Positions 17,568 to 32,000 of a stretch of DNA of 32,000 nt are shown piece after piece; within the stretch, counting starts at the first letter, position 1, and every line of letters begins with the position of its first letter. A program made the position numbers and the translations under genes. The stretch is from Paracoccus suum (GTDB lineage: Bacteria > Pseudomonadota > Alphaproteobacteria > Rhodobacterales > Rhodobacteraceae), in assembly GCF_003324675.1 (NCBI RefSeq), contig NZ_CP030918.1:2730001-2762000 (forward strand). The letters are read 5' to 3'. The notes beneath the pieces were generated by a model. The model searched no databases, was not told the origin of the DNA, and worked only from the letters and a program-made list of their open reading frames with translations.

Positions 17568-17599
17568 GTAACTCTCCAGCATGGCTCAGCAGATATTAC

Positions 17600-17616
17600 T
17601 GTATGACAAACTGTCA
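17600..17616. promoter_or_regulatory. Putative GntR/FadR-type operator (TGTATGACA 17600-17608 followed by aacTGTCA)
   Basis: The sequence attacTGTATGACAaacTGTCAg lies 33 nt upstream of the AA_synth start codon. It carries the same 8-mer as at 11609 and 14195. Confidence 0.5.
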
Positions 17617-17946: not shown

Positions 17947-19611
17947 TTACGCCCGCTTCGCGGCCGTACGCCGCCGCGCGAACCGCCCGAACGGGATCTC
18001 CGGGGGATCGAAGGTTTCAGCGCTCGCCCGATCCCAACGGTCGTACCAATCCGCGAGTTCGGGGATTTCGTCCGGATCCAGCAGGAAGCCGTCGGGTAGG
18101 TAGGGATAGGCCTCATTGCCGTCGAGGAACTCGTTGTCCTTTTGACGGAACATGAAGTGATAGGGCATGAAATCGCTGGGGTCGCGCAGGCCCGCCGCGC
18201 CGGCGATCTCGCCCAGCGCGTGCATCGTGTTGCGGTGGAAGCGCGCGACCCGTTGGCTCTTGTCAGGCACGTCGACGGCGCGCTGGCGCAGTGAATCCTG
18301 GGTGGCGATACCCACAGGGCACTTGTTCGTATGGCAGGACTGCGCCTGGATGCAGCCAATCGCAAACATGAAGCCGCGGCCGGAGTTGCACCAGTCCGCG
18401 CCGAGGGCCAGCGCGCGGGCGATGTCGAACGCCGAGATGATCTTGCCGGCCGCGCCGATGCGGATCTCGTCGCGGATGCCGGCGCCGCGCAGGGCGTTGT
18501 GAACAAAGGTGAGCCCTTCCAGCATCGGCATACCAACATGGTTCACGAACTCGATCGGCGCGGCGCCGGTGCCGCCCTCGGCCCCGTCGATAACGATGAA
18601 GTCCGGCCGGATGCCGGTCTTGAGCATGGCCTTGACCATGCTGAGGAACTCGCGCCGGTGCCCGATGCAGAGCTTGAAGCCGACAGGCTTGCCGCCTGAC
18701 AGATCGCGCAGTTGCTGGATGAAATGCATCAGGCCGATCGGGGTTGAAAACGTGCTGTGCGCGGGCGGCGAGATGCAGTCGACACCCATCGGGATGCCGC
18801 GCGCCTCGGCGATTTCCGGCGAAATCTTGGCGGCGGGCAGCATGCCGCCATGTCCCGGCTTGGCGCCCTGGCTCAGCTTGATCTCGATCATCTTGATCTG
18901 CGGATCGGCCGCCAGTTCGGCAAACCGCTCGGGCGAGAAGGTGCCGTCGGGGTTGCGGCACGAGAAATAGCCCGAGGCGATCTGGAAGATCAGATCGCCT
19001 CCGCCTGCGCGGTGGTAGCGGCTGATGCTGCCCTCGCCGGTATCTTGCGCAAAACCGGCCAGCTTGGCGCCGCGGTTCAGCGCAAGGATCGCATTGGCCG
19101 ACAGCGCGCCAAAACTCATCGCGGAAATATTGTAGAGGCTGGCCGAATAGGGCTGCTTGCAGGCCGGTCCGCCGACCACGACGCGGAAATCGGAATCGGC
19201 ATTCTTGACCGGCGTCGCGGAATGCGTGAGCCACGTATAGCCCGAGCCATAGACATTCTCGATCGTGCCGAAGGGACGCTTGTCCTCGACCCCCTTCGCA
19301 CGCTGATAAACGAGGGCGCGGGCCTCGCGGCTGAATGGCACTTCGTCGCGGTCGCCTTCGATCAGGTACTGGCGGATCTCGGGGCGGAAGCTTTCGAGGA
19401 TGAAACGCAGGTGACCGATGACCGGATAGTTGCGCAGCACCGCGTGACGGCGCTGGGCCAGGTCGTAAACCCCGACAAGGAACAATAGGCCAAAAATCAG
19501 GGCCGGGACCAGAAACCAGCCTCCGGCGCGCACGGCGCCGATGACGAAGACCAAGGCCAGAAGGCCCAGGATTCCGAATGCAAGGAATCGTTGGAGGGTT
19601 CTCATCGCCAT
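17947..19611 (-). CDS. FMN-binding glutamate synthase-domain family protein with N-terminal membrane anchor
   Basis: 554-aa ORF with two N-terminal hydrophobic helices (FLAFGILGLLALVFVIGAV, WFLVPALIFGLLFLVGVY). The GltB FMN-domain pattern follows: NISAMSFGALS, IKLSQGAKPGHGG.LP, PPAHS, DGAEGGTGAAP, and CHTNKCPVGIATQD for the Fe-S-proximal motif. Confidence 0.9.
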   Translation of the reverse strand: MAMRTLQRFLAFGILGLLALVFVIGAVRAGGWFLVPALIFGLLFLVGVYDLAQRRHAVLRNYPVIGHLRFILESFRPEIRQYLIEGDRDEVPFSREARALVYQRAKGVEDKRPFGTIENVYGSGYTWLTHSATPVKNADSDFRVVVGGPACKQPYSASLYNISAMSFGALSANAILALNRGAKLAGFAQDTGEGSISRYHRAGGGDLIFQIASGYFSCRNPDGTFSPERFAELAADPQIKMIEIKLSQGAKPGHGGMLPAAKISPEIAEARGIPMGVDCISPPAHSTFSTPIGLMHFIQQLRDLSGGKPVGFKLCIGHRREFLSMVKAMLKTGIRPDFIVIDGAEGGTGAAPIEFVNHVGMPMLEGLTFVHNALRGAGIRDEIRIGAAGKIISAFDIARALALGADWCNSGRGFMFAIGCIQAQSCHTNKCPVGIATQDSLRQRAVDVPDKSQRVARFHRNTMHALGEIAGAAGLRDPSDFMPYHFMFRQKDNEFLDGNEAYPYLPDGFLLDPDEIPELADWYDRWDRASAETFDPPEIPFGRFARRRTAAKRA

Positions 19612-19806
19612 GAGTGAGTCACCTACTCGTTTCCGTTAATTTTGGGAAGGACGAGGATGGGTGCCTCGAAAAGCAAAAGGGCCAGCGCCGGCCGGCGGAC
19701 GTTTCGCCGCGGCCTTGCAGGGGTGCAGTCTAAGCGCATTTCGTCTAGACTGGCTGCGCAGGCAGCCCGGCAGCGACGCGCCCGGCGGCCGTGGGAGGCG
19801 AGCGCC

Positions 19807-20529
19807 ATGAGCAACATGCCGGACACTGGCCCTTCGCCGATCCCGGTCCTGTGCCGCGCCTGCGAGGCGCGCCATCGTGGCATATGCGGCGCCCTGCACC
19901 CCGCGCAGCTTTCGCGCTTGGCGCGTACCGCGATCCGGCGGGAATGCCCTTCCGGCTCGAACCTTGCATCCGCAGGCAGCCCGGTAACGTCGCATGCCAA
20001 CATCCTCAGCGGCGTCGTCAAGCTGACCAAGCTCATGCCGGACGGTCGCCAGCAGGTCGTGGGCCTGCAGTTCGCGCCCGATTTCCTCGGCCGGCCCTTC
20101 GCTGAGGTCAGCGACGTCACGGCCGAGGCGGCCGGGACCGTGCGCCTCTGCATTTTCCAGCGCGAGGAGCTGGAGGAGATGGCCGTTGAATCCCCAGGGC
20201 TGTCGCGCCGTCTGCATGCCCAGGCCCTCCGCGAGCTTGATGACGCGCGCGACTGGATGCTGACACTGGGCAAGAAATCCGCCTCAGAACGGGTCGCCTC
20301 GGTCCTGCTGCTGATTGGAACGCACATCGACCCGGAGGCGGAGGGATGCTCGCCCAGCTTCGAATTGCCCTTGCGGCGCAGTGACATCGCCGATTTCCTC
20401 GGCCTGACGATCGAGACTGTCAGCCGCCAGATCACGGCGCTGCGCCGACGCGGCATCATTGCGGTGGACCGCAACCGCTTGATCACCGTGCTCGACCTGC
20501 AGGGGCTGGAGTCTGCCGCGGGCGGTTGA
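19807..20529 (+). CDS. fnrL: Crp/Fnr-family oxygen-responsive transcriptional regulator (FnrL/FnrP-type, [4Fe-4S] Cys cluster)
   Basis: N-terminal Cys motif CRACEARHRGIC (C-x2-C-x7-C, as in Rhodobacter FnrL) plus a central Cys in VRLCIF. cNMP-like beta-roll. The HTH carries the FNR-type recognition motif in GLTIETVSRQITAL. ATG 19807 is preceded by a GGGAGG SD, and the upstream part of the 295-aa track ORF is Arg-rich and not protein-like. Confidence 0.85.
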   Translation: MSNMPDTGPSPIPVLCRACEARHRGICGALHPAQLSRLARTAIRRECPSGSNLASAGSPVTSHANILSGVVKLTKLMPDGRQQVVGLQFAPDFLGRPFAEVSDVTAEAAGTVRLCIFQREELEEMAVESPGLSRRLHAQALRELDDARDWMLTLGKKSASERVASVLLLIGTHIDPEAEGCSPSFELPLRRSDIADFLGLTIETVSRQITALRRRGIIAVDRNRLITVLDLQGLESAAGG

Positions 20530-20572
20530 AGCCAGCGGACCCGCCCGCGACAGCAACTATCGCTCGCAGCAC

Positions 20573-20586
20573 TTGATCTCGATCAA
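20573..20586. promoter_or_regulatory. Perfect FNR/FixK box (anaerobox) TTGAT-CTCG-ATCAA upstream of ccoI
   Basis: Exact match to the consensus TTGAT-N4-ATCAA, 78 nt upstream of ccoI ATG 20664 and 43 nt after the fnrL stop. It is the only perfect copy I found in the window. Confidence 0.8.
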
Positions 20587-20663
20587 ACTATTTCCCACCC
20601 CGAACTGGCCTCATGGGGGGAAAGGCAGGATGGCTCGCGTGACAACCCACACGCGACAAGGCC

Positions 20664-22895
20664 ATGTCCGGTTCAGCCACCCTCACCGCAGCCTCTGCCG
20701 AGCGACGCGCCAGCGTCATGCCGACGCCCGAGGGTCACGGGCAGATCCTGCTGTCCGTGCCCGGCATCCGCTGCGGCGCCTGCGTCGCGTCGGTCGAGCG
20801 TCGGCTGGCAGAATTGCCAGAGGTCGTCTCGGCCCGGGCCAACCTGACCTTGCGCCGTGTGACAGTGACGCTGGCGAACGCCGGCGCCGATCCGCTGCCG
20901 GTGATCGAGAAACTGCAGGCCCTCGGCTACCCGGCATCGCCCATCGACACCTCTGACCTGGGACCACAGGCCGAAAGCGCCCAAAGCCGCCAACTGGTTC
21001 GTGCCATGGCGGTTGCAGGTTTTGGCGCGGCCAACATCATGCTGCTATCGGTGGCGGTCTGGTCGGGCGCCGATGGCGCGACGCGCGAGACGTTCCACCT
21101 GATTTCCGGCCTGATCGCGCTGCCCATCGTCGCCTACTCCGGCCGGCCCTTCTTTGACTCTGCGCTGCGCGCTTTGCGGGCGGGGCGCACGAACATGGAC
21201 GTGCCTATCTCGATCGGTATCCTGCTCGCCGTCGCGCTGAGCGTGGTCGAGACCGTCCAGGGCGGCGCGCATGTCTTTTTCGACGCGGCCGTTACGCTGA
21301 TCTTTTTCCTTCTGGCCGGTCGCTACCTCGACCAGTTGATGCGCGAGAAAGCCCGCAGCGCGATCACCGGCCTCGCCCGTCTGGCCCCCAAGGGCGCCAG
21401 CGTGGAGCGACCGGACGGCACGTCGGAATGGCTGCGTCTCGACGCCGTGGCGCCTGGCATGATCCTGCACATCGGGCCGGGCGAGACGGTGCCGCTGGAT
21501 GTCCGCGTGGTGGAGGGCGCGACGGATATCGATCGCTCGCTCGTCACGGGCGAGTCGATGCCGATTGCGGCAGGCCTCAACGCGACACTGGAGGCTGGAA
21601 CGCGCAACCTGACTGGCACGCTGCGGGCCGAGGTGTTGCGCGCGGCTGACGAGTCATTCCTTGCCCAGATGCAACGCATGCTGGGCGAGGCCGAGGCCGG
21701 GCGCGGGCGCTATGTCCGTATTGCGGATCGCGCGGCGCGCCTCTATGCGCCGGTCGTCCACTCGCTGGCGCTGCTGACCTTCATCGGCTGGGTGCTGGCC
21801 ACGGGCGACTGGCGCGCATCTGCCTTTGTCGCGATCAGCGTGCTGATCATCACCTGTCCCTGCGCGCTGGGCCTAGCCGTGCCGGTCGCCCATGTGGTCG
21901 CCGCCGGCCGGCTGATGCGCGAGGGCGTGCTGATGAAGGACGGGTCCGCCCTCGAACGGCTGGCGCAAATCGACCACGTCGTCTTCGACAAGACAGGCAC
22001 GCTGACGACGGGCCAGCCGAGGGTCAGCGCGGCCCCGACCGATCCCGCACGGAGGGCTGCCGCCCGCGCGCTCGCCGCCGGGTCGGTGCACCCCGCGGCC
22101 TTGGCCATCACCGCGCATCTGCCCGAGTGCGGACCGCCGGCCTCCGACCTGCGCGAGGTGCCGGGTTTCGGCATCGAAGCCGTGGTTTCCGGCCGCCGCG
22201 CACGCCTCGGCCGCTCATCCTGGGTCGCCGAAATCGCGTCGGGCGGGACTGCGCCCGCCGGGCCGGCCTTCGCTTTCGAGCGTGACACCGCCGAAGCTTT
22301 CCATCTGGCCGAGACCCTGCGCGACGGCGCCCGCGAGACAATTGCGGAACTTGAGGCGCGGGGGCTGACGACCGCCATGCTGTCCGGGGACGTGGCAGAG
22401 CGCGCTAAGGCCATGGCCAGCCGGCTGGGCATTGCCGAGGTCCATGACGGTGCGACGCCCGCGGACAAGATCGGCTATCTCAATGCTCTGCAGATCGATG
22501 GACGCCGGGCAATGATGGTCGGCGACGGCCTCAATGATACGGCGGCACTTGCTGCGGCCCATGTGTCGATGGCCCCGTCGAGCGCCTCCGATGCTGGCCG
22601 CAGCGCCGCGGACCTGGTCTTTTTGCGAGACGGTTTGCAGGCGGTGGCCGTGGCGCACGACCTCGCGCGCCGCACCGCCCGGCTGGTGAGCCAGAATATC
22701 GGGCTTGCCGTCGCCTACAACTGCCTCGCCATCCCGCTCGCGATGGCGGGACAGGTCACGCCCTTGATCGCGGCGCTCGCGATGTCCGGCTCGTCGCTGC
22801 TGGTGATCGGCAACGCTCTGCGGCTGAACCGGGCGGGAAAGATGGCCTCGACACCGTCCTTGCCCGCCGCCGAGGGGCTGGAGGTGCCGGCATGA
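20664..22895 (+). CDS. ccoI: Copper-translocating P1B-type ATPase, cbb3 oxidase maturation (CcoI/FixI)
   Basis: N-terminal HMA domain with GIRCGACV, transmembrane CPC motif ITCPCALGLAVP, phosphorylation site DKTGTLT, hinge GDGLNDT. ATGA overlap with ccoS. Confidence 0.9.
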   Translation: MSGSATLTAASAERRASVMPTPEGHGQILLSVPGIRCGACVASVERRLAELPEVVSARANLTLRRVTVTLANAGADPLPVIEKLQALGYPASPIDTSDLGPQAESAQSRQLVRAMAVAGFGAANIMLLSVAVWSGADGATRETFHLISGLIALPIVAYSGRPFFDSALRALRAGRTNMDVPISIGILLAVALSVVETVQGGAHVFFDAAVTLIFFLLAGRYLDQLMREKARSAITGLARLAPKGASVERPDGTSEWLRLDAVAPGMILHIGPGETVPLDVRVVEGATDIDRSLVTGESMPIAAGLNATLEAGTRNLTGTLRAEVLRAADESFLAQMQRMLGEAEAGRGRYVRIADRAARLYAPVVHSLALLTFIGWVLATGDWRASAFVAISVLIITCPCALGLAVPVAHVVAAGRLMREGVLMKDGSALERLAQIDHVVFDKTGTLTTGQPRVSAAPTDPARRAAARALAAGSVHPAALAITAHLPECGPPASDLREVPGFGIEAVVSGRRARLGRSSWVAEIASGGTAPAGPAFAFERDTAEAFHLAETLRDGARETIAELEARGLTTAMLSGDVAERAKAMASRLGIAEVHDGATPADKIGYLNALQIDGRRAMMVGDGLNDTAALAAAHVSMAPSSASDAGRSAADLVFLRDGLQAVAVAHDLARRTARLVSQNIGLAVAYNCLAIPLAMAGQVTPLIAALAMSGSSLLVIGNALRLNRAGKMASTPSLPAAEGLEVPA

Positions 22896-23098
22896 GCATC
22901 CTCTCGCTCCTCATTCCCGTTACCCTCCTCATGGGACTCGTCGGCCTCGCAGCCTTTTTCTGGAACCTGCGCCACAGCCAATACGAGGACCTGCTGGGCG
23001 ATGCCGAACGCATCCTCGACGACGACGACCGCCCGCTTCCCCCGACGACCTGCACGGGCGCCTTCCTGCGCCCTTCTGAGAAAGAGACAGCGCGATGA
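22892..23098 (+). CDS. ccoS: cbb3-type cytochrome oxidase assembly protein CcoS/FixS
   Basis: 68-aa single-TM protein MSILSLLIPVTLLMGLVGLAAFFWNLRHSQYEDLLGDAERILDDDD, the typical CcoS signature. ATGA overlaps on both sides (ccoI stop, ccoN start). Confidence 0.85.
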   Translation: MSILSLLIPVTLLMGLVGLAAFFWNLRHSQYEDLLGDAERILDDDDRPLPPTTCTGAFLRPSEKETAR

Positions 23099-24750
23099 TG
23101 GTGTCACGGCTGACCGAAACCGAAAGAGCGACGGCGATCCTGATCTCGCTGCTTGGCCTCGCCATAGGGTTACTGATGGCGGTCCTTGGCCATGGCGATC
23201 CGATGGGTGCGCATGGCTGGGTGGTGATGGCCTTTTGCGGCGTGATGATCTGGCTTGTCGTCTCGCACCTCTACGACCCCGAGCCCACCGAGGATCGCTC
23301 GGCCTCCTACTACGACGACCCGACGCGCGTCGGCATCATCCTGGCCCTGGTCTGGGGGGTGATCGCGATGGGAATGGGCGTATGGGTCGCAGCCCAACTC
23401 GCATGGCCGAACCTGCGCTTTGACGCCGCCTGGTCCAGCTTTGGCCGGCTGCGTCCGCTGCACACCTCGGGCGTCATCTTCGGCTTTGGCGGCAACGCGC
23501 TGATCGCGACATCGTATCACGTCATGCAACGCACGTCGCGGGCGCGCATCGCCGGCCAGTTGTCGCCGTGGTTCGTGCTGTTCGGCTACAACCTGTTCTG
23601 CATCATCGCCGCGACCGGCTACCTGATGGGCGTCACCCAGTCCAAGGAATACGCCGAGCCGGAATGGTATGCCGACCTGTGGTTGGTTGTCGTCTGGGTG
23701 GTGTATTTCGTCATGTATATCCGTACCCTCCAACGCCGGAACGAGCCGCACATCTACGTCGCCAACTGGTACTACCTCGCCTTCATCCTGGTTGTGGCGA
23801 TGCTACACATCATCAACAACCTCGCGGTGCCCGCCTCGTTCTTTGGCGCGAAAAGCTATTCGCTGTTCTCGGGCGTGCAGGACGCAATGACCCAGTGGTG
23901 GTACGGGCACAACGCGGTAGCGTTCTTCCTGACCTCGGGCTTTCTGGGGATGCTCTACTACTTCCTGCCCCGGCGGGCGGAACGGCCGATTTACTCTTAC
24001 CGTCTGTCCATCCTCAGCTTCTGGGGGATCGTGTTCTTTTACATGTGGGCTGGCTCGCACCACCTGCATTACACCGCCCTGCCCTACTGGGTGCAGACGC
24101 TGGGCATGACATTCTCGGTCATGCTGTTGGTCCCGTCCTGGGCATCGGCGGGGAACGCGCTGATGACGCTGAACGGCGCGTGGCACAAGGTTCGGGACGA
24201 CGCCACGCTGCGCTTCATGATGACCGCAGCCGTGTTTTACGGCCTCTCGACCTTCGAGGGTTCGTTCATGGCAGTCCGTCAGGTCAACGCGCTGTCGCAC
24301 TATACCGACTGGACCGTGGGCCACGTCCACGCCGGCGCGATGGGATGGGTCGCGCTGATCTCTTTCGGGTCGATCTACGCGGTTACACCGCTGCTCTTCC
24401 GCCGCGAGAGGATGTACTCGGCCGCTGCGGTCGAGTGGCACTTCTGGCTCGCCCTGGCGGGTACCGTCATCTACGTCTTTGCGATGTGGAACAGCGGCAT
24501 CATCCAGGGGCTGATGTGGCGGACCTATAACGAAAGCGGCACGCTGCGCTATTCGTTCGTCGACTCTCTGGTCGCGATGCATCCCTACTATATCGCCCGC
24601 GCTTTCGGGGGCCTGCTGTTCCTCATCGGGGCCGCCATCGCGCTGTGGAACGTCGTGATGACGATCCGCCATGTCCCGGCCGAGCGTCGCGCCTTTGACC
24701 ATCCGACCGATTCCGAAGCCCTCGAGCCGGCCGTGCCGGCTGCGGAGTGA
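23095..24750 (+). CDS. ccoN: cbb3-type cytochrome c oxidase subunit I (CcoN)
   Basis: 551-aa polytopic protein with CcoN hallmarks: RPLHTSGVIFGFGGNALIATSYH, WWYGHNAVAFFLT, GSHHLHYT, WTVGHVHAGAMGW. Confidence 0.95.
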   Translation: MMVSRLTETERATAILISLLGLAIGLLMAVLGHGDPMGAHGWVVMAFCGVMIWLVVSHLYDPEPTEDRSASYYDDPTRVGIILALVWGVIAMGMGVWVAAQLAWPNLRFDAAWSSFGRLRPLHTSGVIFGFGGNALIATSYHVMQRTSRARIAGQLSPWFVLFGYNLFCIIAATGYLMGVTQSKEYAEPEWYADLWLVVVWVVYFVMYIRTLQRRNEPHIYVANWYYLAFILVVAMLHIINNLAVPASFFGAKSYSLFSGVQDAMTQWWYGHNAVAFFLTSGFLGMLYYFLPRRAERPIYSYRLSILSFWGIVFFYMWAGSHHLHYTALPYWVQTLGMTFSVMLLVPSWASAGNALMTLNGAWHKVRDDATLRFMMTAAVFYGLSTFEGSFMAVRQVNALSHYTDWTVGHVHAGAMGWVALISFGSIYAVTPLLFRRERMYSAAAVEWHFWLALAGTVIYVFAMWNSGIIQGLMWRTYNESGTLRYSFVDSLVAMHPYYIARAFGGLLFLIGAAIALWNVVMTIRHVPAERRAFDHPTDSEALEPAVPAAE

Positions 24751-24754
24751 AACG

Positions 24755-25540
24755 ATGAACCGCCTTTTCAGAACCTTGCTCAAACCCTTCTCTGCCTTCT
24801 TCGAAGGGCATGCCCGGACGCACTACCGGATGGAGCGTCACTCGATCGCGCTGACGATCGGTATCATCATCGCAGCGGGCGTTGGCGGCTTTGTCGAGAT
24901 CGCCCCCCTGTTCACCATCGACGAGACGGTCGAGAAGGTCTCGGACATGCGCGTCTACACCCCGCTCGAGCAGGCAGGGCGCGACATTTATGTGCGCGAG
25001 GCCTGTTATACCTGCCACAGCCAGATGATCCGTACGCTGCGCGACGAGGTGGAGCGCTATGGCCCCTACTCGCTGGCGGTCGAGAGCAAGTACGATCATC
25101 CCATGCTTTGGGGATCCAAGCGCACCGGCCCCGACCTCGCCCGGCTGGGTGACAAGTTTTCCGACGACTGGCACGTGCGGCACCTCATCGACCCGCGCGA
25201 CGTGGTGCCTGAGTCCGTGATGCCTCAGTATGCCTTCCTAGCGCGCACCTCACTCGAGACCGCGAGCCTGCCGGGTCGTTTGGAGGCGCTTCGGACCGTC
25301 GGCGTGCCCTACACCGACGAGATGATCGCGAACGCCAGCTTGGATGCGCTGGGCCAGACCAGGCCTGACCGCGAGCAGGCCGATGGCGTTGTCGAGCGCT
25401 ATGGCGAGGCAACCCATGTCCGCAATTTCGACGATCAGCCCGACCGACTGACCGAAATGGACGCGCTCGTCGCCTATCTGCAGGTCCTCGGCAAGCTGAC
25501 CACCCTCCCGGACCAGATCAAGATCGTAGCGGAGGAGTGA
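24755..25540 (+). CDS. ccoO: cbb3-type cytochrome c oxidase subunit II, monoheme (CcoO)
   Basis: ATG 24755 lies 7 nt after a GGAG at the ccoN stop. TM anchor, then VEIAPLF and heme motif CYTCHSQMIR, WGSKRTGPDLARLG, HLIDPR. An alternative start is ATG 24830 (MERHS). Confidence 0.9.
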   Translation: MNRLFRTLLKPFSAFFEGHARTHYRMERHSIALTIGIIIAAGVGGFVEIAPLFTIDETVEKVSDMRVYTPLEQAGRDIYVREACYTCHSQMIRTLRDEVERYGPYSLAVESKYDHPMLWGSKRTGPDLARLGDKFSDDWHVRHLIDPRDVVPESVMPQYAFLARTSLETASLPGRLEALRTVGVPYTDEMIANASLDALGQTRPDREQADGVVERYGEATHVRNFDDQPDRLTEMDALVAYLQVLGKLTTLPDQIKIVAEE

Positions 25541-25542
25541 AG

Positions 25543-25713
25543 ATGGACTTTTCGCATGACAGCGTCGTCGCGTTCGCCAAGACCTTCGGCCTGATCTACC
25601 TGGTCGCGCTCTCGGTCGGGATCACCATCTACGCCTTCTGGCCGTCGCTGGGCAAACGCTTCGATAAGGCGGCAAACAGCATTCTGGATGACGAGAATGG
25701 CCCATGTCGGTAA
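25543..25713 (+). CDS. ccoQ: cbb3-type cytochrome c oxidase subunit CcoQ/FixQ (small single-TM subunit, absent from the ORF track)
   Basis: My own translation gives MDFSHDSVVAFAKTFGLIYLVALSVGITIYAFWPSLGKRFDKAANSILDDENGPCR (56 aa). It sits between ccoO and ccoP, 2 nt after the ccoO stop, and overlaps the ccoP start by 10 nt. The ...YAFWP...KRFD.AA motif is CcoQ-like. Confidence 0.7.
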   Translation: MDFSHDSVVAFAKTFGLIYLVALSVGITIYAFWPSLGKRFDKAANSILDDENGPCR

Positions 25714-26570
25714 AAGAACGCGATCCGCTGACCGGTCATCAGACCACCGGTCATGAATGGGACGGCATCACCGAACTGAACACCCGCGTTCCGCGCGCAG
25801 TGTGGTGGGCGGTGGGTCTGACACATCTGTGGGCGGTGATCGTCTGGGTATTGCTGCCCACCTGGCCACTGGTCACGACCTACACCAAGGGCCTGCTGGG
25901 CCTGACGGATCGCGGCGAGGTCGATGCCGCGATCGTTCAGGCCAATGCCGCGCGGGCCGACTGGGCCGACCCGGTCCTGGCGATGCCCGTGGACGAAATC
26001 CGCGCTGACGACGCACTGATCGGGCGCGTACGGCAGACCGGGCATTCGCTGTTTGGTGACAACTGCGCGGGCTGCCACGGTCGCGACGCGCGAGGCGGCC
26101 CCGGCTTTCCGAACCTGATCGACGGCGACTGGCTGTGGGGTGGCGATCCCGACACCATCATCGAGACGCTGAACGTCGGCATAAACTCGACCCACCCCGA
26201 CACGCGCACCTCGCAGATGATGGCTTTTGGCCGGGACGGGATGCTGACACGACCGCAAATACTTTCGGTGATCGGCCACATCCGCGCGCTGTCGCGCACC
26301 GATGCCGCGCCGTCTGCCGACAATCCCGCAGGGGCCGAAATCTACGCCGACAACTGCGCCAGCTGCCACGGCGATGACGGGCGCGGCATGGAGGAAATCG
26401 GCGCCCCGAACCTGACCGACAACCAGTGGATCTACGGCGGCGACGATGATTCCGTCTACCGCACCATCTGGGGCGGGCGGCAGGGCTGGATGCCGTCCTG
26501 GCAGGGTCGGCTCAGCCCTACGGAGATCAAGATCCTGACCACCTATCTGCTCGATGCGGGGGCGCAATGA
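25704..26570 (+). CDS. ccoP: cbb3-type cytochrome c oxidase subunit III, diheme (CcoP)
   Basis: N-terminal HEWDGI.ELN motif, a TM helix and two heme motifs CAGCHG and CASCHG. 288 aa. Confidence 0.9.
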   Translation: MSVKERDPLTGHQTTGHEWDGITELNTRVPRAVWWAVGLTHLWAVIVWVLLPTWPLVTTYTKGLLGLTDRGEVDAAIVQANAARADWADPVLAMPVDEIRADDALIGRVRQTGHSLFGDNCAGCHGRDARGGPGFPNLIDGDWLWGGDPDTIIETLNVGINSTHPDTRTSQMMAFGRDGMLTRPQILSVIGHIRALSRTDAAPSADNPAGAEIYADNCASCHGDDGRGMEEIGAPNLTDNQWIYGGDDDSVYRTIWGGRQGWMPSWQGRLSPTEIKILTTYLLDAGAQ

Positions 26571-26767
26571 GCCTCGCACACATTCCACGGCGCTTCTGGT
26601 CCGGCGCGCGGCTCTTTGCGCTGGCGACATCCGGACTGATCCTCGTCATCTTCATCGCGGCGAACTGGCACCTTGTCGCCATTTCCCTCGCCTCCCACCC
26701 GGATTGCGCGCTTGCCCTTCCGCAGGACATCGCCGGTCCCCTTGCAGCGGCGAAACCATCATGTTGA
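26567..26767 (+). CDS. Small single-TM protein, N-terminal CcoH/FixH-like segment only (hypothetical)
   Basis: 66-aa ORF whose ATG overlaps the ccoP stop (ATGA) and whose TGA overlaps the next gene's start (ATGTTGA). One hydrophobic helix, LFALATSGLILVIFIAANWHLVAISL. The pattern F.G......VIFIAAN......A.SHP resembles the FixH/CcoH N-terminal anchor from memory. It could also be a non-coding overlap artefact. Confidence 0.45.
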   Translation: MSLAHIPRRFWSGARLFALATSGLILVIFIAANWHLVAISLASHPDCALALPQDIAGPLAAAKPSC

Positions 26768-27663
26768 ACGACCCCGTCGACCCCCGCGAGCCCAAGGAAC
26801 TGCCCCCGACAGACAATCCCCATGCCGGCGGGATCGTGATCCCGAAGGTGGTCCCATCGCTGCCGCGCGAGAACCCCTATGTACGCAGCCTTCCCGGCCG
26901 AACCGCACTTTCGTGGCTCGGTCAGGGATGGCGAGACCTCTGGGCGAACTCGCTTCCCAGCCTCCTTTACGGGCTGGGCGTGTTCTGCCTCTCGGCCTGG
27001 ATCGCGTGGCTGCTGTTTCATCTGGAGCTGGACTATGTCCTCTTCCCTGCCCTCGCTGGTTTCCTGGTCCTCGGGCCGCTGGTCGCCAACGGCCTTTACG
27101 AGAAAAGCCGCCGGCTCGAGCTCGGCGAGCGCACCAGTTTTCTACAGATGATCTTCGTCCGGCCCGCCTCGGGCTACCAGGCGCTGTTCATGGGGGTCCT
27201 GCTGCTGGGCCTCTTCCTGCTGTGGCTGCGCGCCGCGGTCATCATTTACGCTCTGTTCTTTGGGGTCGTGGGGTTTCCCGGCATCGAGGACCTCGGGCAG
27301 ATGCTGCTCTTCACCCACAAGGGCTGGGGCTTGCTGATCGCCGGCAGTGCCGTCGGCGCTCTCTTCGCCGCCTTCGGGTTTGCCATCAGCGTCTTCGCGC
27401 TGCCCATGATGCTGGAAGAGCGAACTGATGCCCTTACGGCGCTGGGCATCAGCATGGCCATGACCTGGAACAACCTGCGCGTGATGATCGTCTGGGGCGC
27501 AATCGTCCTGGTGTTGTTCGCGATCTGCGTGGCAAGCCTCTTTATCGGGTTGATCGTGATCTTCCCGCTGCTGGGCCACGCGACATGGCACGCCTATCGT
27601 ACGATCCGCGGAACAAGCCACGCTGGAAAGCCGAGCGAACGGATGTTCATCAGGCCGGCATAA
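26761..27663 (+). CDS. DUF2189-like polytopic integral membrane protein (function unknown)
   Basis: ATG 26761 (MLNDPVDP...) gives about 300 aa with 5-6 hydrophobic segments (LLYGLGVFCLSAWIAWLLF, FPALAGFLVLGPLVANGLY, LFMGVLLLGLFLLWL, etc.). It is translationally coupled to the preceding small ORF. The family call is from memory. Confidence 0.8.
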   Translation: MLNDPVDPREPKELPPTDNPHAGGIVIPKVVPSLPRENPYVRSLPGRTALSWLGQGWRDLWANSLPSLLYGLGVFCLSAWIAWLLFHLELDYVLFPALAGFLVLGPLVANGLYEKSRRLELGERTSFLQMIFVRPASGYQALFMGVLLLGLFLLWLRAAVIIYALFFGVVGFPGIEDLGQMLLFTHKGWGLLIAGSAVGALFAAFGFAISVFALPMMLEERTDALTALGISMAMTWNNLRVMIVWGAIVLVLFAICVASLFIGLIVIFPLLGHATWHAYRTIRGTSHAGKPSERMFIRPA

Positions 27664-27726: not shown

Positions 27727-28239
27727 CTACCTCTCAAGCGTCATGGTGGCCATGGCGTCCATATCAGGCGGCATCTCAGAACCTGACGCCGCATAGCCGT
27801 TCTGCGACAACAGAAATGTGGTGATGTCAGTGTAAGTCTTGTCTGTCAGGGCGCCGGGCCGGTTCGGCGGCATTGCGCTTTGGGTAAAGCTGTAGAGCGC
27901 GTCGACCGTTGTCGGACCCCAATGCTCGTCGAAGTAATTACCCTTCAGCGGCGCACCCCCGAATTCCCCGTTGTTCAACTGATCGCCATGGCAATCCGAG
28001 CAATTGGCCATGTAGGCCTTCCGGCCACGCTCGACCTGCGCGGTAGTGAATTGCGGCGGGCGAAGGTCTTCGTCCACCGCTTTTTCGACGGTCTTGGGTG
28101 CAGCACCGATCGGCGCCGTGGCGTCGAGGCTTGGCATGCCCTTGATCTCGGCAAAACCTGCAGGCGCCAAAATTGCGACGAGGATGGCTGAAACTGCGCC
28201 AGACCGGCAAAATTGGCGAAGTGGCTGTCGGTGCGTCAT
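27727..28239 (-). CDS. Periplasmic monoheme c-type cytochrome (probable electron acceptor of the adjacent PQQ dehydrogenase)
   Basis: ATG 28239 (MTHRQPL...), with the track start 28254 being a GTG. Signal peptide ...AILVAILAPAGFA/E, heme motif CSDCHG, Met ligand candidate in QSAMPPNRPG. Divergent from the PQQ-DH gene. Confidence 0.85.
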   Translation of the reverse strand: MTHRQPLRQFCRSGAVSAILVAILAPAGFAEIKGMPSLDATAPIGAAPKTVEKAVDEDLRPPQFTTAQVERGRKAYMANCSDCHGDQLNNGEFGGAPLKGNYFDEHWGPTTVDALYSFTQSAMPPNRPGALTDKTYTDITTFLLSQNGYAASGSEMPPDMDAMATMTLER

Positions 28240-28325
28240 CGTTCCATCTCTCACATCATGTGGTGCTGAACTGAGCGCTCATCCCGGCTTGACATGGTGG
28301 GACACTGGGAGTGTTCTTTGACTGT

Positions 28326-28341: not shown

Positions 28342-28413
28342 TACTGCAAGCCAACGATGGACGGTCACGCCGTTCCCGGCAAGGTCGCCCTCGGTAATTT
28401 GGAGGGTCTCAGC

Positions 28414-30198
28414 ATGACATTCGCGCGTTTGTTAACCTCATCGATGTGGGTCGCACCCCTGTTGGTGCTCGGCAGCGTGGCAGTGGCGCAGGAGAAGGCC
28501 GCGCCGAATCCGCTGGACGCCATCACGCCCGTGACCGACGAGATGCTGAAGAAGCCGGCCGATGGCGACTGGCTGATGTGGCGGCGTACCTATGACGGCT
28601 GGGGCTTCTCGCCGCTCGCGCAGATAGACAAGACGAATGTGAAGAACCTGGAGGTCGCATGGGTGTGGTCGCTGTCGAACGGCGCGACGGAAACGACGCC
28701 CATCGTCCATGACGGGGTCCTGTTCGTCTACAACTACGGCGACAAGATCCAGGCGCTGAACGCCAAGACGGGCGATCTGCTCTGGGAATATCAGCGCGAG
28801 TTGCCGCAGGAATTGATCGACGCCGGTGGCAACAACCTCGCCAAGCGCAACATGGCCATCTACGATGACAAGCTGATCGCAGCGACCTCCGATGCCTTTA
28901 TCATCGCGCTCGACGTCAAGACCGGCCAGGTCGCCTGGGAAAAGCAAACGGCCGACTGGCAAAAGGGCTGGCGCTACACCAGCGGCCCGTTCATCGCCGA
29001 GGGCAAGATCATTCAGGGGATGACTGGCTGCGGCAACGCCCAGCCGGGCGGCTGCTTCGTCACCGGCAACGATCCCAAGACCGGCGAGGAGCTCTGGCGT
29101 GTCTACACCATTGCCCGGCCGGATGACCCGAAAGGCGGAGATACCTGGAACGGGCTGCCGCTGGAGAGCCGGATGGGCGGTTCGGCCTGGATCTCGGGCA
29201 CCTATGACCCCGACCAGAAACTTGTCTTCCAGGGGGTCGGCCAGCCTTACCCCTGGATCGCCGAAATGCGCGGAACGCTGCCGGTGAAGGATGGCAAGAA
29301 CAACGATGCCCTCTACACCGATTCTACCATGGCGATCGACCCGGCCTCGGGCGAGCTGAAATGGTACCACCAGTACCTCAAGGACGACACCTGGGACCTC
29401 GATTACGTCTACGAGCGGCAGCTGATCGACCTTCCGGTCGCCGGTGTGGACAAGAAGATGCTGGTGACCACCGGCAAGCTGGGCATCATCGAGGCGATTG
29501 ATCGCACCAACGGCGATTTCCTGTGGGCGACCGAGACGGTGCCGCAAAACGTCGTCTCTGCCATCGATGAAAAGACAGGCGAAAAGACCATCAACCAGGA
29601 CGCTGTCCCGCATATCGGCAAGACGACGGTGAACTGCCCGGCGGACCCCGGGGGGCGCGGTTGGCCGGCCACGGCCTACAGCCCGAAGACCCAGGCACTA
29701 TACCTGCCGCTGAACGAGTTCTGCTCGAACACGACGCCGCAGCCGCTCGACCCTGGCCAAGTGTACACGGGCGGAGGCAGGGCCACCTATGACCGCGTGC
29801 CGGTGCCGAACAGCGACGGCAATATCGGCCGGATCGATGCGGTCAAGCTGACCGACCAGTCGCAGATGTGGAGCCATCGCCAGCGCTCACCCGTCACCAG
29901 CGCCGTTCTGCCGACCGCAGGCGGGCTCGTCTTCGCGGGCAGTTGGGACCGCTGGTTCCGGGCTTTTGACGACGAGACCGGCGACGTGCTGTGGGAAACG
30001 CGGGTGAACAACGCGATCAACTCGTTCCCGATCAGCTACGAGGTCGACGGCAAGCAGTACATCGCCGTCGCCGTGGGCAATGGGTCCAGCGCCGCACGCT
30101 CTTGGGCGACGCTGACGCCCGAATTGCTGAACCCGGATGGCGGCTCGGCCCTGTGGGTATTTGCCGTTTCGGACGAGAAGAAAACGGCCGCCAACTGA
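28414..30198 (+). CDS. PQQ-dependent dehydrogenase, methanol/ethanol-family beta-propeller, divergent active-site signature
   Basis: ATG 28414 lies 7 nt after a GGAGGG SD, with signal peptide MTFARLLTSSMWVAPLLVLGSVAVA/QE. N-terminal DWLMWRRTYDGWGFSPL, and repeated propeller motifs A(L/I)D..TG...W (ALNAKTGDLLW, ALDVKTGQVAW, AIDPASGELKW, AFDDETGDVLW). No CxxCH, so it is not a quinohemoprotein. Confidence 0.9.
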   Translation: MTFARLLTSSMWVAPLLVLGSVAVAQEKAAPNPLDAITPVTDEMLKKPADGDWLMWRRTYDGWGFSPLAQIDKTNVKNLEVAWVWSLSNGATETTPIVHDGVLFVYNYGDKIQALNAKTGDLLWEYQRELPQELIDAGGNNLAKRNMAIYDDKLIAATSDAFIIALDVKTGQVAWEKQTADWQKGWRYTSGPFIAEGKIIQGMTGCGNAQPGGCFVTGNDPKTGEELWRVYTIARPDDPKGGDTWNGLPLESRMGGSAWISGTYDPDQKLVFQGVGQPYPWIAEMRGTLPVKDGKNNDALYTDSTMAIDPASGELKWYHQYLKDDTWDLDYVYERQLIDLPVAGVDKKMLVTTGKLGIIEAIDRTNGDFLWATETVPQNVVSAIDEKTGEKTINQDAVPHIGKTTVNCPADPGGRGWPATAYSPKTQALYLPLNEFCSNTTPQPLDPGQVYTGGGRATYDRVPVPNSDGNIGRIDAVKLTDQSQMWSHRQRSPVTSAVLPTAGGLVFAGSWDRWFRAFDDETGDVLWETRVNNAINSFPISYEVDGKQYIAVAVGNGSSAARSWATLTPELLNPDGGSALWVFAVSDEKKTAAN

Positions 30199-30270: not shown

Positions 30271-31104
30271 ATGGCACCAGGAATGATCATTCGGGCCTGC
30301 GCGTTGATTTCCGTCGGTCTCATGGGGTTTATGCCCATCGCGGCCCCGGCGCAGGATACGCCCTACATCGCAGAGCCGTGGCGCTACGGTCGAAACGACG
30401 ACAAGAATACCTTGCGCTACTGCATCGACCCGAGGGATTCAGAGTGGAAGATCGCACAGGACATCGCCCAGCAGATCGCCGCGGCCCTGCTGCTGGAACC
30501 CGCGCCCAAGATGATCGAGGACAAGCGGGTCACGGCGGGCTGGGACGTCCTTTACACCCATCTTCTGACGGATTGCGACGTCTACTTCGGCTTCAAGCTG
30601 ATCCCGGGGGTTTATCCCGGTTGGGTGACGCTGACGCGCCCCTACTATGCCTCGACCTACGTGTTCGCCGTCACCGACCCAAGCTGGCAATCTCTCGCGG
30701 ACATTCCGCCAGATCGGCCCATCGCGACGGCAATCGGCACCAGCGCGGATTTCAGCTTCATCAAATACCTGCAAACGCTGCCCCCTGCCCGCCAGTGGCC
30801 ACGCTTTCCAATGGGCACCAACGAAGATGCCCTTGCGGCCCTTTCCAAAGGCACGGCGGCGGCCGCCTTGGTCTGGGGACCCGCCGTCTGGGCCGCGAAG
30901 GAGGCGAACCCGGCCTATGCCGACCTGCGCCTGATTGCGCCCGACCCCTTGCCACCAACCACGCTGAACATGGGCGCAGCCATGCTGGGCAACCAGAGCT
31001 TTTTGCGCAGCAACGTCGACCGCGCCATTTCAGAGCTGACGGCAGACGGGACGATAGCCGCGATCCTGAAGGACCATGCTTTCCCCGCAGAGCCGGTTCC
31101 CTAG
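30271..31104 (+). CDS. MoxJ/XoxJ-like periplasmic solute-binding-fold protein associated with quinoprotein dehydrogenases
   Basis: 277-aa ORF with signal peptide (...GLMGFMPIAAPAQD). Type-3 SBP-like pattern: LRYCIDP......IAQ.IA, CDVYFG, LTRPYYASTYVF. Its position directly after a PQQ-DH matches MoxJ-type context. Confidence 0.7.
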   Translation: MAPGMIIRACALISVGLMGFMPIAAPAQDTPYIAEPWRYGRNDDKNTLRYCIDPRDSEWKIAQDIAQQIAAALLLEPAPKMIEDKRVTAGWDVLYTHLLTDCDVYFGFKLIPGVYPGWVTLTRPYYASTYVFAVTDPSWQSLADIPPDRPIATAIGTSADFSFIKYLQTLPPARQWPRFPMGTNEDALAALSKGTAAAALVWGPAVWAAKEANPAYADLRLIAPDPLPPTTLNMGAAMLGNQSFLRSNVDRAISELTADGTIAAILKDHAFPAEPVP

Positions 31105-31174: not shown

Positions 31175-32000
31175 GTGAAGGGTGGGATCGTTGCCTGCGA
31201 TGTCGGCAAGCGCTTCGGACGGACGCTGGCGCTCGACAAGGTATCCCTGACCGTCCAACCCGGTCAGTTGTTCGCGCTTCTCGGGCCCAACGGCGCGGGC
31301 AAGACTACCCTTGTGCGGATTCTTACTACCCTGCTGCGGGCCGACAGCGGCACTGTTCTGGTGGACGGCAAGGATGTCGTGAAGCAGGCACAAGCCGCAC
31401 GCGCCAGCATCGGAGTGGTTTTTCAGGAGCCGAGCCTTGATGACCGGCTGACGGTGGGCGAGAACCTAGATTTCCACGGCCGGGTATATGGCGTTCCGGG
31501 ACCGCTGCGTCGCAAGCGCATCCACCAGATGCTGGATTTGGTCGAGTTGACCGATCAGCACGATCGACTGGTGCGCACGCTGTCCTCTGGCATGAAACGC
31601 CGCGTCGAGATTGCCCGAGCGCTGATCCACGACACGGCCATCCTGTTCATGGACGAGCCGACGGTGGGGCTCGACGTCCAGAGCCGCGCGCGGATCTGGG
31701 ACTATATCGCGCGCCTGCGTGACGAGCGTGACCTGACAGTGGTGGTGACCACCCACTACATTGAAGAGGTCGCGGGCTGCGACCGCGTTTGTATCATCGA
31801 CCAGGGCAAGGTTCTCGCCGCCGACACGCCCGCGGCTTTGCGGCGCAGGTACGGACAAGTTCTTTTGCGGGTCACACCGCGTGACGAGGAGACCCGGGCC
31901 CAGATCCTTGCCCTGGTCCCCGACGCCGCCCTGGATTCCCAAGGCTCGATCATCCTACCTGTCCCCGAGGAAGGTTTCGTCGACCGCTTTCTGGCGCGGT
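31175..32000 (+). CDS. ABC transporter ATP-binding protein (ABC-2/DrrA-like), 3'-truncated by the window edge
   Basis: Not in the ORF track because no stop occurs before the window end. My translation from GTG 31175 is MKGGIVACDVGKRFGRTLALDKVSLTVQPGQLFALLGPNGAGKTTLVRIL... It carries Walker A GPNGAGKTT, signature LSSGMKRRVEIARAL and Walker B ILFMDEPTVGLD. The start codon is uncertain (weak SD). Confidence 0.85.
   Translation, partial: MKGGIVACDVGKRFGRTLALDKVSLTVQPGQLFALLGPNGAGKTTLVRILTTLLRADSGTVLVDGKDVVKQAQAARASIGVVFQEPSLDDRLTVGENLDFHGRVYGVPGPLRRKRIHQMLDLVELTDQHDRLVRTLSSGMKRRVEIARALIHDTAILFMDEPTVGLDVQSRARIWDYIARLRDERDLTVVVTTHYIEEVAGCDRVCIIDQGKVLAADTPAALRRRYGQVLLRVTPRDEETRAQILALVPDAALDSQGSIILPVPEEGFVDRFLAR

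What the first reader, a model, noticed from the sequence alone, without database searches (positions are those of the whole stretch)
28414..30198. PQQ dehydrogenase lacking the vicinal Cys-Cys ring and with an altered metal-binding sphere but a lanthanide-type D-x-D motif
The protein aligns by eye with MxaF/XoxF/ExaA-type propellers but differs at hallmark positions. (a) Where those enzymes have CCD.VNRG (the vicinal disulfide next to PQQ), this one has GGNNLAKRNMA, with no Cys pair. (b) The loop G.SGAE.GVRG that supplies the metal-ligand Glu is replaced by GMTGCGNAQPGGCFVTG, which lacks the Glu and instead has a C-x7-C pair. (c) The Asn ligand in GTGNP.PW is Gln (GVGQPYPW). (d) The catalytic-Asp region reads DTWDLDY. 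That places an Asp two residues after the catalytic Asp, the feature that distinguishes lanthanide-dependent XoxF/PedH/ExaF from Ca enzymes (WDYA). This combination suggests an uncharacterised clade with a different metal site and possibly a different electron-transfer route to its cytochrome c. All comparisons are from remembered motifs, not a computed alignment.
Basis: partly seen in the sequence, partly recalled or inferred. Interest (0 to 1): 0.65.

Follow-up and report, generated by a model that had tools for sequence, protein, structure and literature searches.

The report
Disulfide-less PQQ dehydrogenase with partner cytochrome

Summary
All four sequence observations hold in a computed alignment against validated PDB sequences. 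MxaF C103-C104 aligns to G139-N140, E177 to G207 (inside a C206-x7-C214 loop), N261 to Q277, D303 to D328, and A305 to D330.

The combination is not new. The nearest solved structures are Pseudogluconobacter PQQ-ADH (4CVB), DepA (7WMD) and sorbose dehydrogenase (4MH1), at E about 1e-100, TM 0.82-0.88 and 34-37% identity. 4CVB and 7WMD, whose sequences were aligned here, also lack the Cys-Cys ring, the Glu and the Asn. Both are recorded as Ca2+ enzymes and carry Glu at the +2 position.

D-x-D is found in 81 of 86 disulfide-less cluster representatives. Two papers had already noted it together with the missing Cys-Cys: Aylward 2020, and Voutsinos 2025, which predicts lanthanide use. Neither tested it experimentally.

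The protein belongs to a large uncharacterised alpha/betaproteobacterial family. It sits in a xoxFGJ-like module with a class I cytochrome c, a MoxJ/XoxJ-like binding protein and an ABC-2 transporter. Homologues of that cytochrome are fused to many relatives.

One new detail emerged. Loop position 210 switches between Glu and Gln at least 16 times within the family; this protein has the less charged Gln form.

The metal cannot be decided from sequence. Interest is modest.

The parts
28414..30198 (+). PQQ-dependent dehydrogenase, 594 aa, of the disulfide-ring-less branch. Residues 1-25 look like a signal peptide. Key residues: E93, R145, T189, T204, W259 (PQQ-binding equivalents); C206-x7-C214 loop carrying Q210; Q277; catalytic D328; D330; K355; C408/C437.
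   Evidence: Pfam PF01011 at 203 bits; TIGR03075 at 399 bits, below its 480 cutoff. PDB 4CVB E 2e-103. Alignment. AF2 model pLDDT 80, pTM 0.86. Foldseek TM 0.82-0.88 to 22VI/4CVB/9M2C.
28401..28405 (+). Shine-Dalgarno GGAGG, 8 nt upstream of the ATG at 28414. It supports the shorter start over the ATG at 28294.
   Evidence: Sequence read; homologue N-termini.
27727..28254 (-). Divergently transcribed monohaem class I cytochrome c (CSDCH at residue 85; the true start is probably the ATG at 28239). Proposed electron acceptor.
   Evidence: Pfam PF13442. It is 30-42% identical (E 1e-22 to 1e-10) to cytochrome c domains fused to the N- or C-terminus of about 40 representative relatives. A homologue lies within 6 kb of the dehydrogenase in 47 of 80 loci.
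30271..31104 (+). Periplasmic MoxJ/XoxJ-like substrate-binding-fold protein.
   Evidence: All 16 aligned orthologues hit TIGR03871 weakly (36 bits for the window copy, far below the 212 cutoff) and 8 hit MoxJ TIGR03870. The best PDB profile hit is XoxJ 6ONP, E 7e-5. It lies directly downstream in 44 of 80 loci.
31175..32000 (+). ABC-2 type transporter ATP-binding protein. The start is approximate and the gene runs off the window end. Relatives continue with an ABC-2 permease.
   Evidence: Translation. DrrA TIGR01188 at 289 bits; TIGR03864 'PQQ-dependent alcohol dehydrogenase system' ATPase at 237 bits, below its 302 cutoff. Pfam ABC_tran. The permease in L010 and L002 matches TIGR01247, TIGR03861 and ABC2_membrane.

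Best explanation
The gene encodes a periplasmic, PQQ-dependent alcohol or sugar dehydrogenase of the disulfide-ring-less branch of eight-bladed quinoproteins. That branch already includes Pseudogluconobacter PQQ-ADH, DepA and sorbose dehydrogenase.

Shown by alignment: the catalytic Asp (D328) and most PQQ-binding positions are kept, and the protein has no vicinal Cys-Cys.

Inferred mechanism: the substrate is oxidised at PQQ, and reduced PQQ passes electrons directly to the divergently encoded class I cytochrome c. That protein exists as a fused domain in many relatives. The MoxJ/XoxJ-like protein and the ABC-2 transporter downstream complete a xoxFGJ-like module.

Inferred metal site: D328, D330 and Q277, and probably Q210 at the tip of a disulfide-stapled C206-x7-C214 loop that replaces the classical Glu loop.

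The Asp at +2 is a near-universal feature of this branch, probably compensating for the lost Glu, and is not a marker of lanthanide use. This protein offers two carboxylates and two amides, the same protein carboxylate count (two) as MxaF (Glu, Asp). I therefore rate Ca2+ slightly more likely than a lanthanide (about 0.45 against 0.4). The substrate is unknown.
For: Family and fold.

Residue mapping.

Membership of the disulfide-less, Lys355 branch: the NJ tree and the C-x(n)-C loop, present in 69 of 104 CC-less sequences and 0 of 18 CC-containing ones.

Cytochrome partner: fusions in relatives and conserved linkage.

J-like protein and ABC-2 transporter.

D-x-D is branch-wide: 81 of 86 representatives and 190 of 190 family members.

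PsADH and SDH are listed as calcium enzymes, and PsADH and DepA have Glu at +2.

E. coli mGDH carries D-x-D yet works with Ca, Mg and other metals (PMC11996626).

Position 210 is restricted to E or Q and position 277 to Q or E, as expected for oxygen-donor ligands.
Against: No coordinates of the model were available, so the proximity of Q210 and Q277 to the metal is inferred from alignment and loop topology only. I could not read the 4CVB paper, so the actual Ca2+ ligands of the closest structure are not confirmed here. Every experimentally tested methanol- or ethanol-type PQQ dehydrogenase with Asp at +2 is lanthanide-dependent. D-x-E in the Ca2+-bound PsADH branch could itself be the derived Ca adaptation. 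There is no substrate evidence. TIGR03075 scores below its curated cutoff. PQQ biosynthesis genes are not in the window.
Confidence: 0.5

Rival explanations
1. It is the same enzyme and module, but truly lanthanide-dependent. D330 would act as the extra carboxylate that binds Ln3+, as in XoxF, PedH and ExaF. for D-x-D clades related to sorbose dehydrogenase.
For: D328-x-D330 is invariant in 190 of 190 family members. Most orthologues have E210/Q277/D328/D330, chemically the same set as XoxF Glu/Asn/Asp/Asp. The hosts are soil and aquatic Hyphomicrobiales, Beijerinckiaceae and Acetobacteraceae. An ABC-2 transporter with a binding protein, distantly related to the PedA1BC lanthanide importer families, is linked. 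PMC11996626 predicts lanthanide binding for such clades.
Against: No member of the disulfide-less branch has been shown to use lanthanides. The members with a recorded metal are Ca2+ enzymes, and the two aligned here have an acidic +2 residue. This protein has Gln, not Glu, at 210, leaving only two carboxylates. mGDH has D-x-D but uses Ca/Mg. The transporter proteins score well below the curated cutoffs of the Ped families, and the YVTN propeller PedA2 is missing. No lanM, lutH or other lanthanide genes are in the window.
Confidence: 0.35
2. It is a non-catalytic or PQQ-free beta-propeller, in the manner of the 'acido-empty quinoprotein' families, that merely resembles PQQ dehydrogenases.
For: It scores 287 bits against TIGR04528 'acido-empty-quinoprotein group A' and falls below the cutoff for TIGR03075. 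The Cys-Cys, the Glu ligand and the Arg331 equivalent are all changed.
Against: The TIGR04528 score is far below its 650 cutoff. The catalytic Asp, the stacking Trp (W259) and E93, R145, T189 and T204 are conserved. K355 matches the Lys in active PsADH and DepA. A dedicated cytochrome c is linked or fused throughout the clade. The closest structures are active PQQ enzymes.
Confidence: 0.05
3. It is an ordinary XoxF/ExaF-type enzyme whose Cys-Cys, Glu and Asn are present but were missed by eye.
For: None after alignment.
Against: The protein has only four cysteines and none are adjacent. The computed alignment places Gly-Asn, Gly and Gln at the three positions. Identity to XoxF, PedH and MxaF is only 28-29%, and to ExaA 33%.
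Confidence: 0.01

Closest known systems
Pseudogluconobacter saccharoketogenes PQQ-ADH (PDB 4CVB/4CVC), Devosia DepA (7WMD/7WMK), Ketogulonicigenium sorbose dehydrogenase (4MH1), and the related 9M2C and 22VI entries
   Same: Eight-bladed soluble PQQ dehydrogenases and the best sequence and fold matches (E 1e-96 to 1e-103; TM 0.82-0.88). For 4CVB and 7WMD, which I aligned: no vicinal Cys-Cys; a C-x(n)-C loop where MDH has the Glu177 loop; Lys in place of Arg331; the second structural Cys pair kept; an acidic residue two positions after the catalytic Asp.
   Different: Only 34-37% identical and on a separate sub-branch. PsADH and DepA have D-x-E where this protein has D-x-D. At the Asn261 position they have Gly (GSTGAGP) where this protein has Gln in a GxGQPYPW motif like that of MDH. 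They have Asp in GGRDW where this protein has Gly416. The loop is C-x6-C with Gln next to the first Cys, against C-x7-C with Gln/Glu in the middle. Their substrates (sugars, alcohols, deoxynivalenol) and Ca2+ are established; nothing is known for this family.
Lanthanide-dependent XoxF (4MAE, 6OC5), PedH (6ZCW) and ExaF
   Same: Asp two residues after the catalytic Asp. A periplasmic PQQ propeller with a dedicated cytochrome c and a J-type binding protein (xoxFGJ-like module).
   Different: 26-29% identity. XoxF and PedH keep Cys-Cys, Glu172, Asn256 and Arg. Their cytochrome is of another type (cL/XoxG for XoxF, from my own knowledge); the cytochrome here is class I, resembling c6/CcoP.
Putative lanthanide-dependent 'sorbose dehydrogenase' clades of Voutsinos et al. 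2025 (PMC11996626), and the Cys-Cys-less DXD quinoproteins of heterotrophic Thaumarchaea (PMC7300363)
   Same: The same combination of features (relatives of 4CVB with D-x-D; no Cys-Cys plus DXD), reported from sequence and AlphaFold models only.
   Different: Those sets come from ocean metagenomes (mostly Acidobacteria and Gammaproteobacteria) or from archaea. Whether this alphaproteobacterial family falls inside their third clade was not tested. Those papers do not describe the E/Q switching at positions 210 and 277.
Ca2+-dependent MxaF (1H4I) and ExaA (1FLG)
   Same: Fold, catalytic Asp, stacking Trp, several PQQ contacts, the C386-C415-type Cys pair (MxaF), and two protein carboxylates at the metal site.
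   Different: 28-33% identity. They have Cys-Cys, Glu177, Asn261 and Arg331, and Ala or Ser at +2.

Membership tests
Eight-bladed PQQ dehydrogenase superfamily (Pfam PF01011) | Significant match to the PQQ beta-propeller profile, and an eight-bladed fold | tested here: met
   PF01011 at 202.8 bits against a cutoff of 26.7. AF2 model pTM 0.86, with TM 0.8-0.88 to 30 solved PQQ dehydrogenases.
Eight-bladed PQQ dehydrogenase superfamily (Pfam PF01011) | Catalytic Asp and core PQQ-binding residues (MxaF E55, R109, T159, S174, W243, D303) | tested here: met
   E93, R145, T189, T204, W259 and D328 align to them. R331 is replaced by K355 and N394 by G416.
NCBIfam TIGR03075, PQQ-dependent dehydrogenase of the methanol/ethanol family | Score above the curated cutoff of 480 bits | tested here: not met
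   398.8 bits.
Classical MDH/EDH type (MxaF, XoxF, ExaA, PedE/H) | Vicinal Cys-Cys disulfide ring over PQQ | tested here: not met
   G139-N140 at that position; no adjacent cysteines anywhere in the protein.
Classical MDH/EDH type (MxaF, XoxF, ExaA, PedE/H) | Glu (MxaF 177) and Asn (MxaF 261) metal ligands | tested here: not met
   G207 and Q277. The nearest possible substitute for the Glu is Q210, which is Glu in about 72-83% of the family.
Lanthanide-dependent PQQ alcohol dehydrogenases | Asp two residues after the catalytic Asp (D-x-D) | tested here: met
   D328-L-D330; invariant in 190 of 190 family members.
Lanthanide-dependent PQQ alcohol dehydrogenases | Activity or metal content that depends on Ln3+ | not testable with these tools
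   Needs biochemistry. No member of the disulfide-less branch has been tested with lanthanides in the papers I could read.
Lanthanide-dependent PQQ alcohol dehydrogenases | Lanthanide uptake or sensing genes (lanM, lutH, PedA1A2BC orthologues) in the genome | tested here: inconclusive
   None in the 32 kb window. The linked binding protein and ABC-2 transporter match the Ped-associated families only below cutoff. The rest of the genome was not available.
Disulfide-less PsADH/DepA/SDH-type quinoproteins | No vicinal Cys-Cys; a C-x(n)-C loop in place of the Glu loop; Lys at the Arg331 position | tested here: met
   C206-x7-C214 and K355 are shared with 4CVB and 7WMD.
Disulfide-less PsADH/DepA/SDH-type quinoproteins | The same metal ligand set as 4CVB (D-x-E, Asp in GGRDW, Gly at the Asn261 position), and close sequence relationship | tested here: not met
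   D-x-D, G416 and Q277; 37% identity; separate sub-branch. The actual 4CVB ligands could not be checked because the paper is not held.
xoxFGJ / mxaFJG-type gene module | Dehydrogenase gene linked to a dedicated cytochrome c and a MoxJ/XoxJ-like periplasmic protein | tested here: met
   Cytochrome c within 6 kb in 47 of 80 loci and the J-like protein directly downstream in 44 of 80. XoxJ is the best PDB profile hit. The cytochrome is not of the cL type.

The most novel reading that the evidence does not exclude
Within this single orthologous family the predicted metal sphere forms a natural charge series. Position 210 is restricted to Glu or Gln and switched at least 16 times. Position 277 is Gln or Glu. 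D328 and D330 are invariant. Together these give two, three or four carboxylates. If 210 and 277 really are ligands, the Glu210 forms (the same Glu/amide/Asp/Asp chemistry as XoxF) could be lanthanide enzymes and the Gln210 forms, such as this one, their calcium counterparts. That would be a calcium/lanthanide switch operating at the Glu position rather than at the +2 Asp, in a branch that also lacks the disulfide ring. It would show that D-x-D alone misclassifies metal use in a large share of environmental PQQ dehydrogenases.
Probability: 0.15. Interest if true: 0.7.

Novelty: new member of a known kind. Interest (0 to 1): 0.3.

Why it matters
Surveys now count every D-x-D PQQ dehydrogenase as lanthanide-dependent and draw biogeochemical conclusions from those counts. 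This family is abundant in soil and aquatic Alpha- and Betaproteobacteria: hundreds of sequence clusters, with several paralogues per genome. It combines D-x-D with loss of the other classical ligands, and it sits next to structurally solved Ca2+ enzymes that have an acidic +2 residue. Testing one Gln210 member and one Glu210 member with Ca2+ and La3+ would show whether the motif can be trusted outside the XoxF/ExaF clades. For this window alone, the finding is a routine annotation: an uncharacterised cytochrome-c-linked quinoprotein dehydrogenase module.

Tried and rejected
1. I tried to read Rozeboom et al. 2015 (PMC4815231) for the real Ca2+ ligands of 4CVB, but it is not held. Searches for other papers that list those ligands found nothing usable. 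One search was a wasted query.

2. Keltjens et al. 2014 (the clade nomenclature paper) is not held, so I could not assign a 'PQQ-ADH type' number.

3. An exact look-up of the window protein's contig failed. The rest of the source genome, including pqq, xoxF and lanthanide genes, could not be inspected. The species-representative genome scan has no identical locus; the best is 80%.

4. The cbb3 oxidase operon just upstream (ccoNOP) looked like a possible terminal acceptor. No ccoN, ccoP or DUF2189 homologue lies near the dehydrogenase in any of 80 related loci, so I treat the adjacency as coincidental.

5. ORF 31466..31942 (-) appeared conserved in 33 loci. It is the antisense shadow of a + strand ABC ATPase gene.

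6. Cluster-member names for ten distant representatives gave only generic labels. A search on polyvinyl-alcohol dehydrogenase gave nothing useful. From memory, PVADH has an N-terminal haem c domain like many relatives here, but I did not test that link.

7. The structure tool returns no coordinates, so ligand distances in the AF2 model could not be measured.

8. The NJ tree has no bootstrap support values. It is used only for coarse placement.
Full report
**The observation**

The ORF at 28414..30198 (+) encodes 594 aa. A longer reading from the ATG at 28294 is possible. However, a GGAGG Shine-Dalgarno sits 8 nt before the ATG at 28414, and homologues from 80 genomes align from residues 1-5 of the short form. 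Residues 1-25 look like a Sec signal peptide, and the AF2 model has pLDDT below 50 for residues 1-28.

The protein has only four cysteines: 206, 214, 408 and 437.

**Computed alignment**

I validated the reference sequences against the PDB. My MxaF equals 1H4I over 599/599 residues, and ExaA equals 1FLG over 582/582. XoxF-SolV equals 4MAE after three corrections. PedH (6ZCW), PsADH (4CVB) and DepA (7WMD) were transcribed from HMMER output.

A MAFFT L-INS-i alignment of 122 sequences gives this mapping:

| MxaF position | This protein |
|---|---|
| C103-C104 | G139-N140 |
| E177 | G207 |
| N261 | Q277 |
| D303 | D328 |
| A305 | D330 |
| R331 | K355 |

PQQ-contact equivalents E93, R145, T189 and T204 and the stacking Trp W259 are kept.

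**What the protein is**

Pfam PF01011 matches strongly. NCBIfam TIGR03075 (methanol/ethanol family) scores 399 bits, below its 480 cutoff.

The best PDB sequence hits are 4CVB, 7WMD, 9M2C, 22VI and 4MH1 (E 1e-96 to 1e-103). ExaA, quinohaemoprotein ADHs, XoxF and MxaF follow far behind (1e-41 to 1e-66).

An AF2 model built from a 61-sequence alignment has pLDDT 80.3 and pTM 0.86. Foldseek ranks the same group first, at TM 0.82-0.88 and 34-35% identity.

In the alignment, PsADH and DepA have Ser-Leu for Cys-Cys, Gln for Glu177, Gly for Asn261, Lys for Arg331, and D-x-E at the catalytic strand. So the missing disulfide ring and the rebuilt metal sphere already exist in solved, active enzymes. A published compilation records 4CVB and 4MH1 as calcium enzymes (supplement of PMC11996626). 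From memory, the abstract of Rozeboom et al. 2015 says that three of the four Ca2+ ligands differ, that there is no vicinal disulfide, and that a cytochrome c may approach PQQ directly. I could not open that paper.

**Position in the wider family**

An exhaustive search of 1.84 billion cluster representatives found 1248 with E <= 1e-30. The protein is 37% identical to PsADH, 33% to ExaA and 28% to MxaF.

On an NJ tree, its family lies inside a large branch that lacks Cys-Cys and has Lys at position 355. PsADH and DepA form a different sub-branch of that same branch (no bootstrap).

Among 86 disulfide-less representatives, 81 have Asp and 3 have Glu at the +2 position. D-x-D is therefore the rule in this branch, not a distinguishing feature.

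A C-x(n)-C loop at the place of the Glu177 loop occurs in 69 of 104 disulfide-less sequences and in none of 18 Cys-Cys-containing ones. The second pair, C408/C437, aligns with MxaF C386/C415.

**The close family**

The protein's own family is large and uncharacterised:

- The top 120 of 3695 hits are all 68-82% identical, with generic names only.
- 199 loci were found in species-representative genomes. They come from Hyphomicrobiales (Propylenella binzhouense at 79%, Chelativorans, Devosia, Pelagibacterium, Xanthobacteraceae, Beijerinckiaceae), Acetobacteraceae, Rhodobacteraceae and some Betaproteobacteria.
- Some MAGs carry up to three paralogues.

**Gene neighbourhood**

- **Cytochrome c.** The gene at 27727..28254 (-) encodes a 175-aa monohaem class I cytochrome c. 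About 40 representative relatives carry a single-haem cytochrome c domain fused at the N- or C-terminus. The stand-alone window protein is 30-42% identical to those domains, with E down to 3e-22. A homologue lies within 6 kb of the dehydrogenase in 47 of 80 loci. This Rosetta-stone evidence makes it the likely electron acceptor.
- **J-like protein.** Directly downstream (30271..31104) is a periplasmic binding-fold protein. All 16 aligned orthologues hit the 'quinoprotein dehydrogenase-associated' TIGR03871 weakly, and 8 hit MoxJ. XoxJ (6ONP) is the best PDB profile hit.
- **ABC transporter.** Next comes an ABC-2 ATPase that runs off the window (31175 onward). In relatives it is followed by an ABC-2 permease. 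These resemble the Ped-cluster families TIGR03864 and TIGR03861 but score below their cutoffs. PedA1A2BC is a lanthanide importer in P. putida (PMC6839425), but orthology is not established here and the PedA2 propeller is absent.
- **cbb3 oxidase.** The ccoNOP genes upstream are never linked to the dehydrogenase in the 80 related loci.
- **Cofactor and metal genes.** No pqq or known lanthanide genes occur in the window.

**The metal question**

Two published studies already report this combination. Aylward and Santoro 2020 noted thaumarchaeal quinoproteins that lack Cys-Cys but keep DYD or DXD. Voutsinos et al. 2025 described clades related to sorbose dehydrogenase that consist only of D-x-D sequences, modelled one on 4CVB, and predicted lanthanide binding. 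Neither study tested this experimentally. The same paper notes that E. coli mGDH has D-x-D yet works with Ca, Mg and other metals.

New in this analysis:

- The loop reads CGNA[E/Q]PGGC in the close family, with Glu in 99 of 120 sequences and Gln in 19, including this protein.
- Over 190 family members, position 210 is E in 137, Q in 51 and something else in 2. There are at least 16 switches on an NJ tree.
- Position 277 is Q in 183 and E in 7.
- D328 and D330 are invariant.

Restriction to the isosteric E/Q pair at two positions that correspond to the classical Glu loop and the Asn ligand fits oxygen-donor ligands whose charge is free to vary. The majority form (Glu, Gln, Asp, Asp) copies the XoxF chemistry. 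This protein (Gln, Gln, Asp, Asp) offers only two carboxylates, as MxaF does with its Glu and Asp.

I could not measure distances, so the ligand role of 210 is an inference. My estimates are Ca2+ about 0.45, lanthanide about 0.4, and other or none about 0.15.

**Verdict**

But the key features are already documented in solved structures and in two sequence surveys, and D-x-D cannot be read as a lanthanide signature in this branch.

I file it as a new member of a known kind, of modest interest. The one testable lead is the E/Q charge series at the predicted metal site.

Noticed in passing
window 28414-30198, residue 210 (codon at 29041-29043); loci L001-L080: Position 210, in the C-x7-C loop, is almost only Glu (137) or Gln (51) across 190 family members and switches at least 16 times on an NJ tree. 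Position 277 is Gln (183) or Glu (7). The window protein is the Gln/Gln form, while its closest named relative (Propylenella, L002) is Glu/Gln.
   Followed up: partly
alignment of 122 PQQ dehydrogenases (query residues 205-215): A C-x(n)-C loop at the site of the classical Glu177 loop and the vicinal Cys-Cys ring are mutually exclusive: 69 of 104 sequences without Cys-Cys have the loop, and 0 of 18 with Cys-Cys do. This suggests a disulfide-stapled loop is the structural replacement in this branch.
   Followed up: partly
representatives P0121-P0269: Roughly 40 relatives are natural fusions with a monohaem cytochrome c domain, either N-terminal (about 150-210 extra residues) or C-terminal (about 140-180). 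Both are homologous to the stand-alone cytochrome next to the window gene.
   Followed up: yes
window 31466-31942 (-) and 31175-32000 (+): The 158-aa minus-strand ORF, which looks conserved in 33 related loci, is an antisense shadow of a plus-strand ABC-2 ATPase gene that runs off the window end.
   Followed up: yes
loci L001-L080: Gln210-type genes usually have the cytochrome c gene immediately adjacent (11 of 14 scored). Glu210-type genes have it about 4-5 kb downstream, behind the binding protein and ABC-2 transporter, or not within 6 kb (39 of 41). This probably reflects sub-clades rather than function.
   Followed up: partly
window 19642-27663: A Crp/FNR-type regulator (19642-20529), a heavy-metal P-type ATPase with an HMA domain (20664-22895, possibly CcoI-like), the cbb3 oxidase genes ccoN (23095-24750), ccoO (within 24671-25540) and ccoP (25704-26570), and a DUF2189 membrane protein (26761-27663). 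None of these is linked to the dehydrogenase in related genomes.
   Followed up: partly
window 71-19611: A catabolic region on mixed strands. It contains RidA (71-556), a flavin amine oxidase (1033-2625), two aldehyde dehydrogenases (3161-4678, 4675-6132), NMT1-type binding proteins with an ABC transporter (6129-7139, 8907-11547), a TPP enzyme (7150-8967), an FAD monooxygenase (11661-12911), an amidohydrolase (12908-14107), a GntR regulator (14896-15609), an amidase (15617-17023), an AA_synth protein (16989-17582) and a glutamate-synthase-like protein (17947-19611). It was not examined further.
   Followed up: no
loci L003/L021/L052, L019/L035/L044 and others: Single MAGs carry two or three paralogues of this dehydrogenase on different contigs. 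One MAG (MFD01716.bin.1.171) has both Glu210 and Gln210 forms.
   Followed up: no
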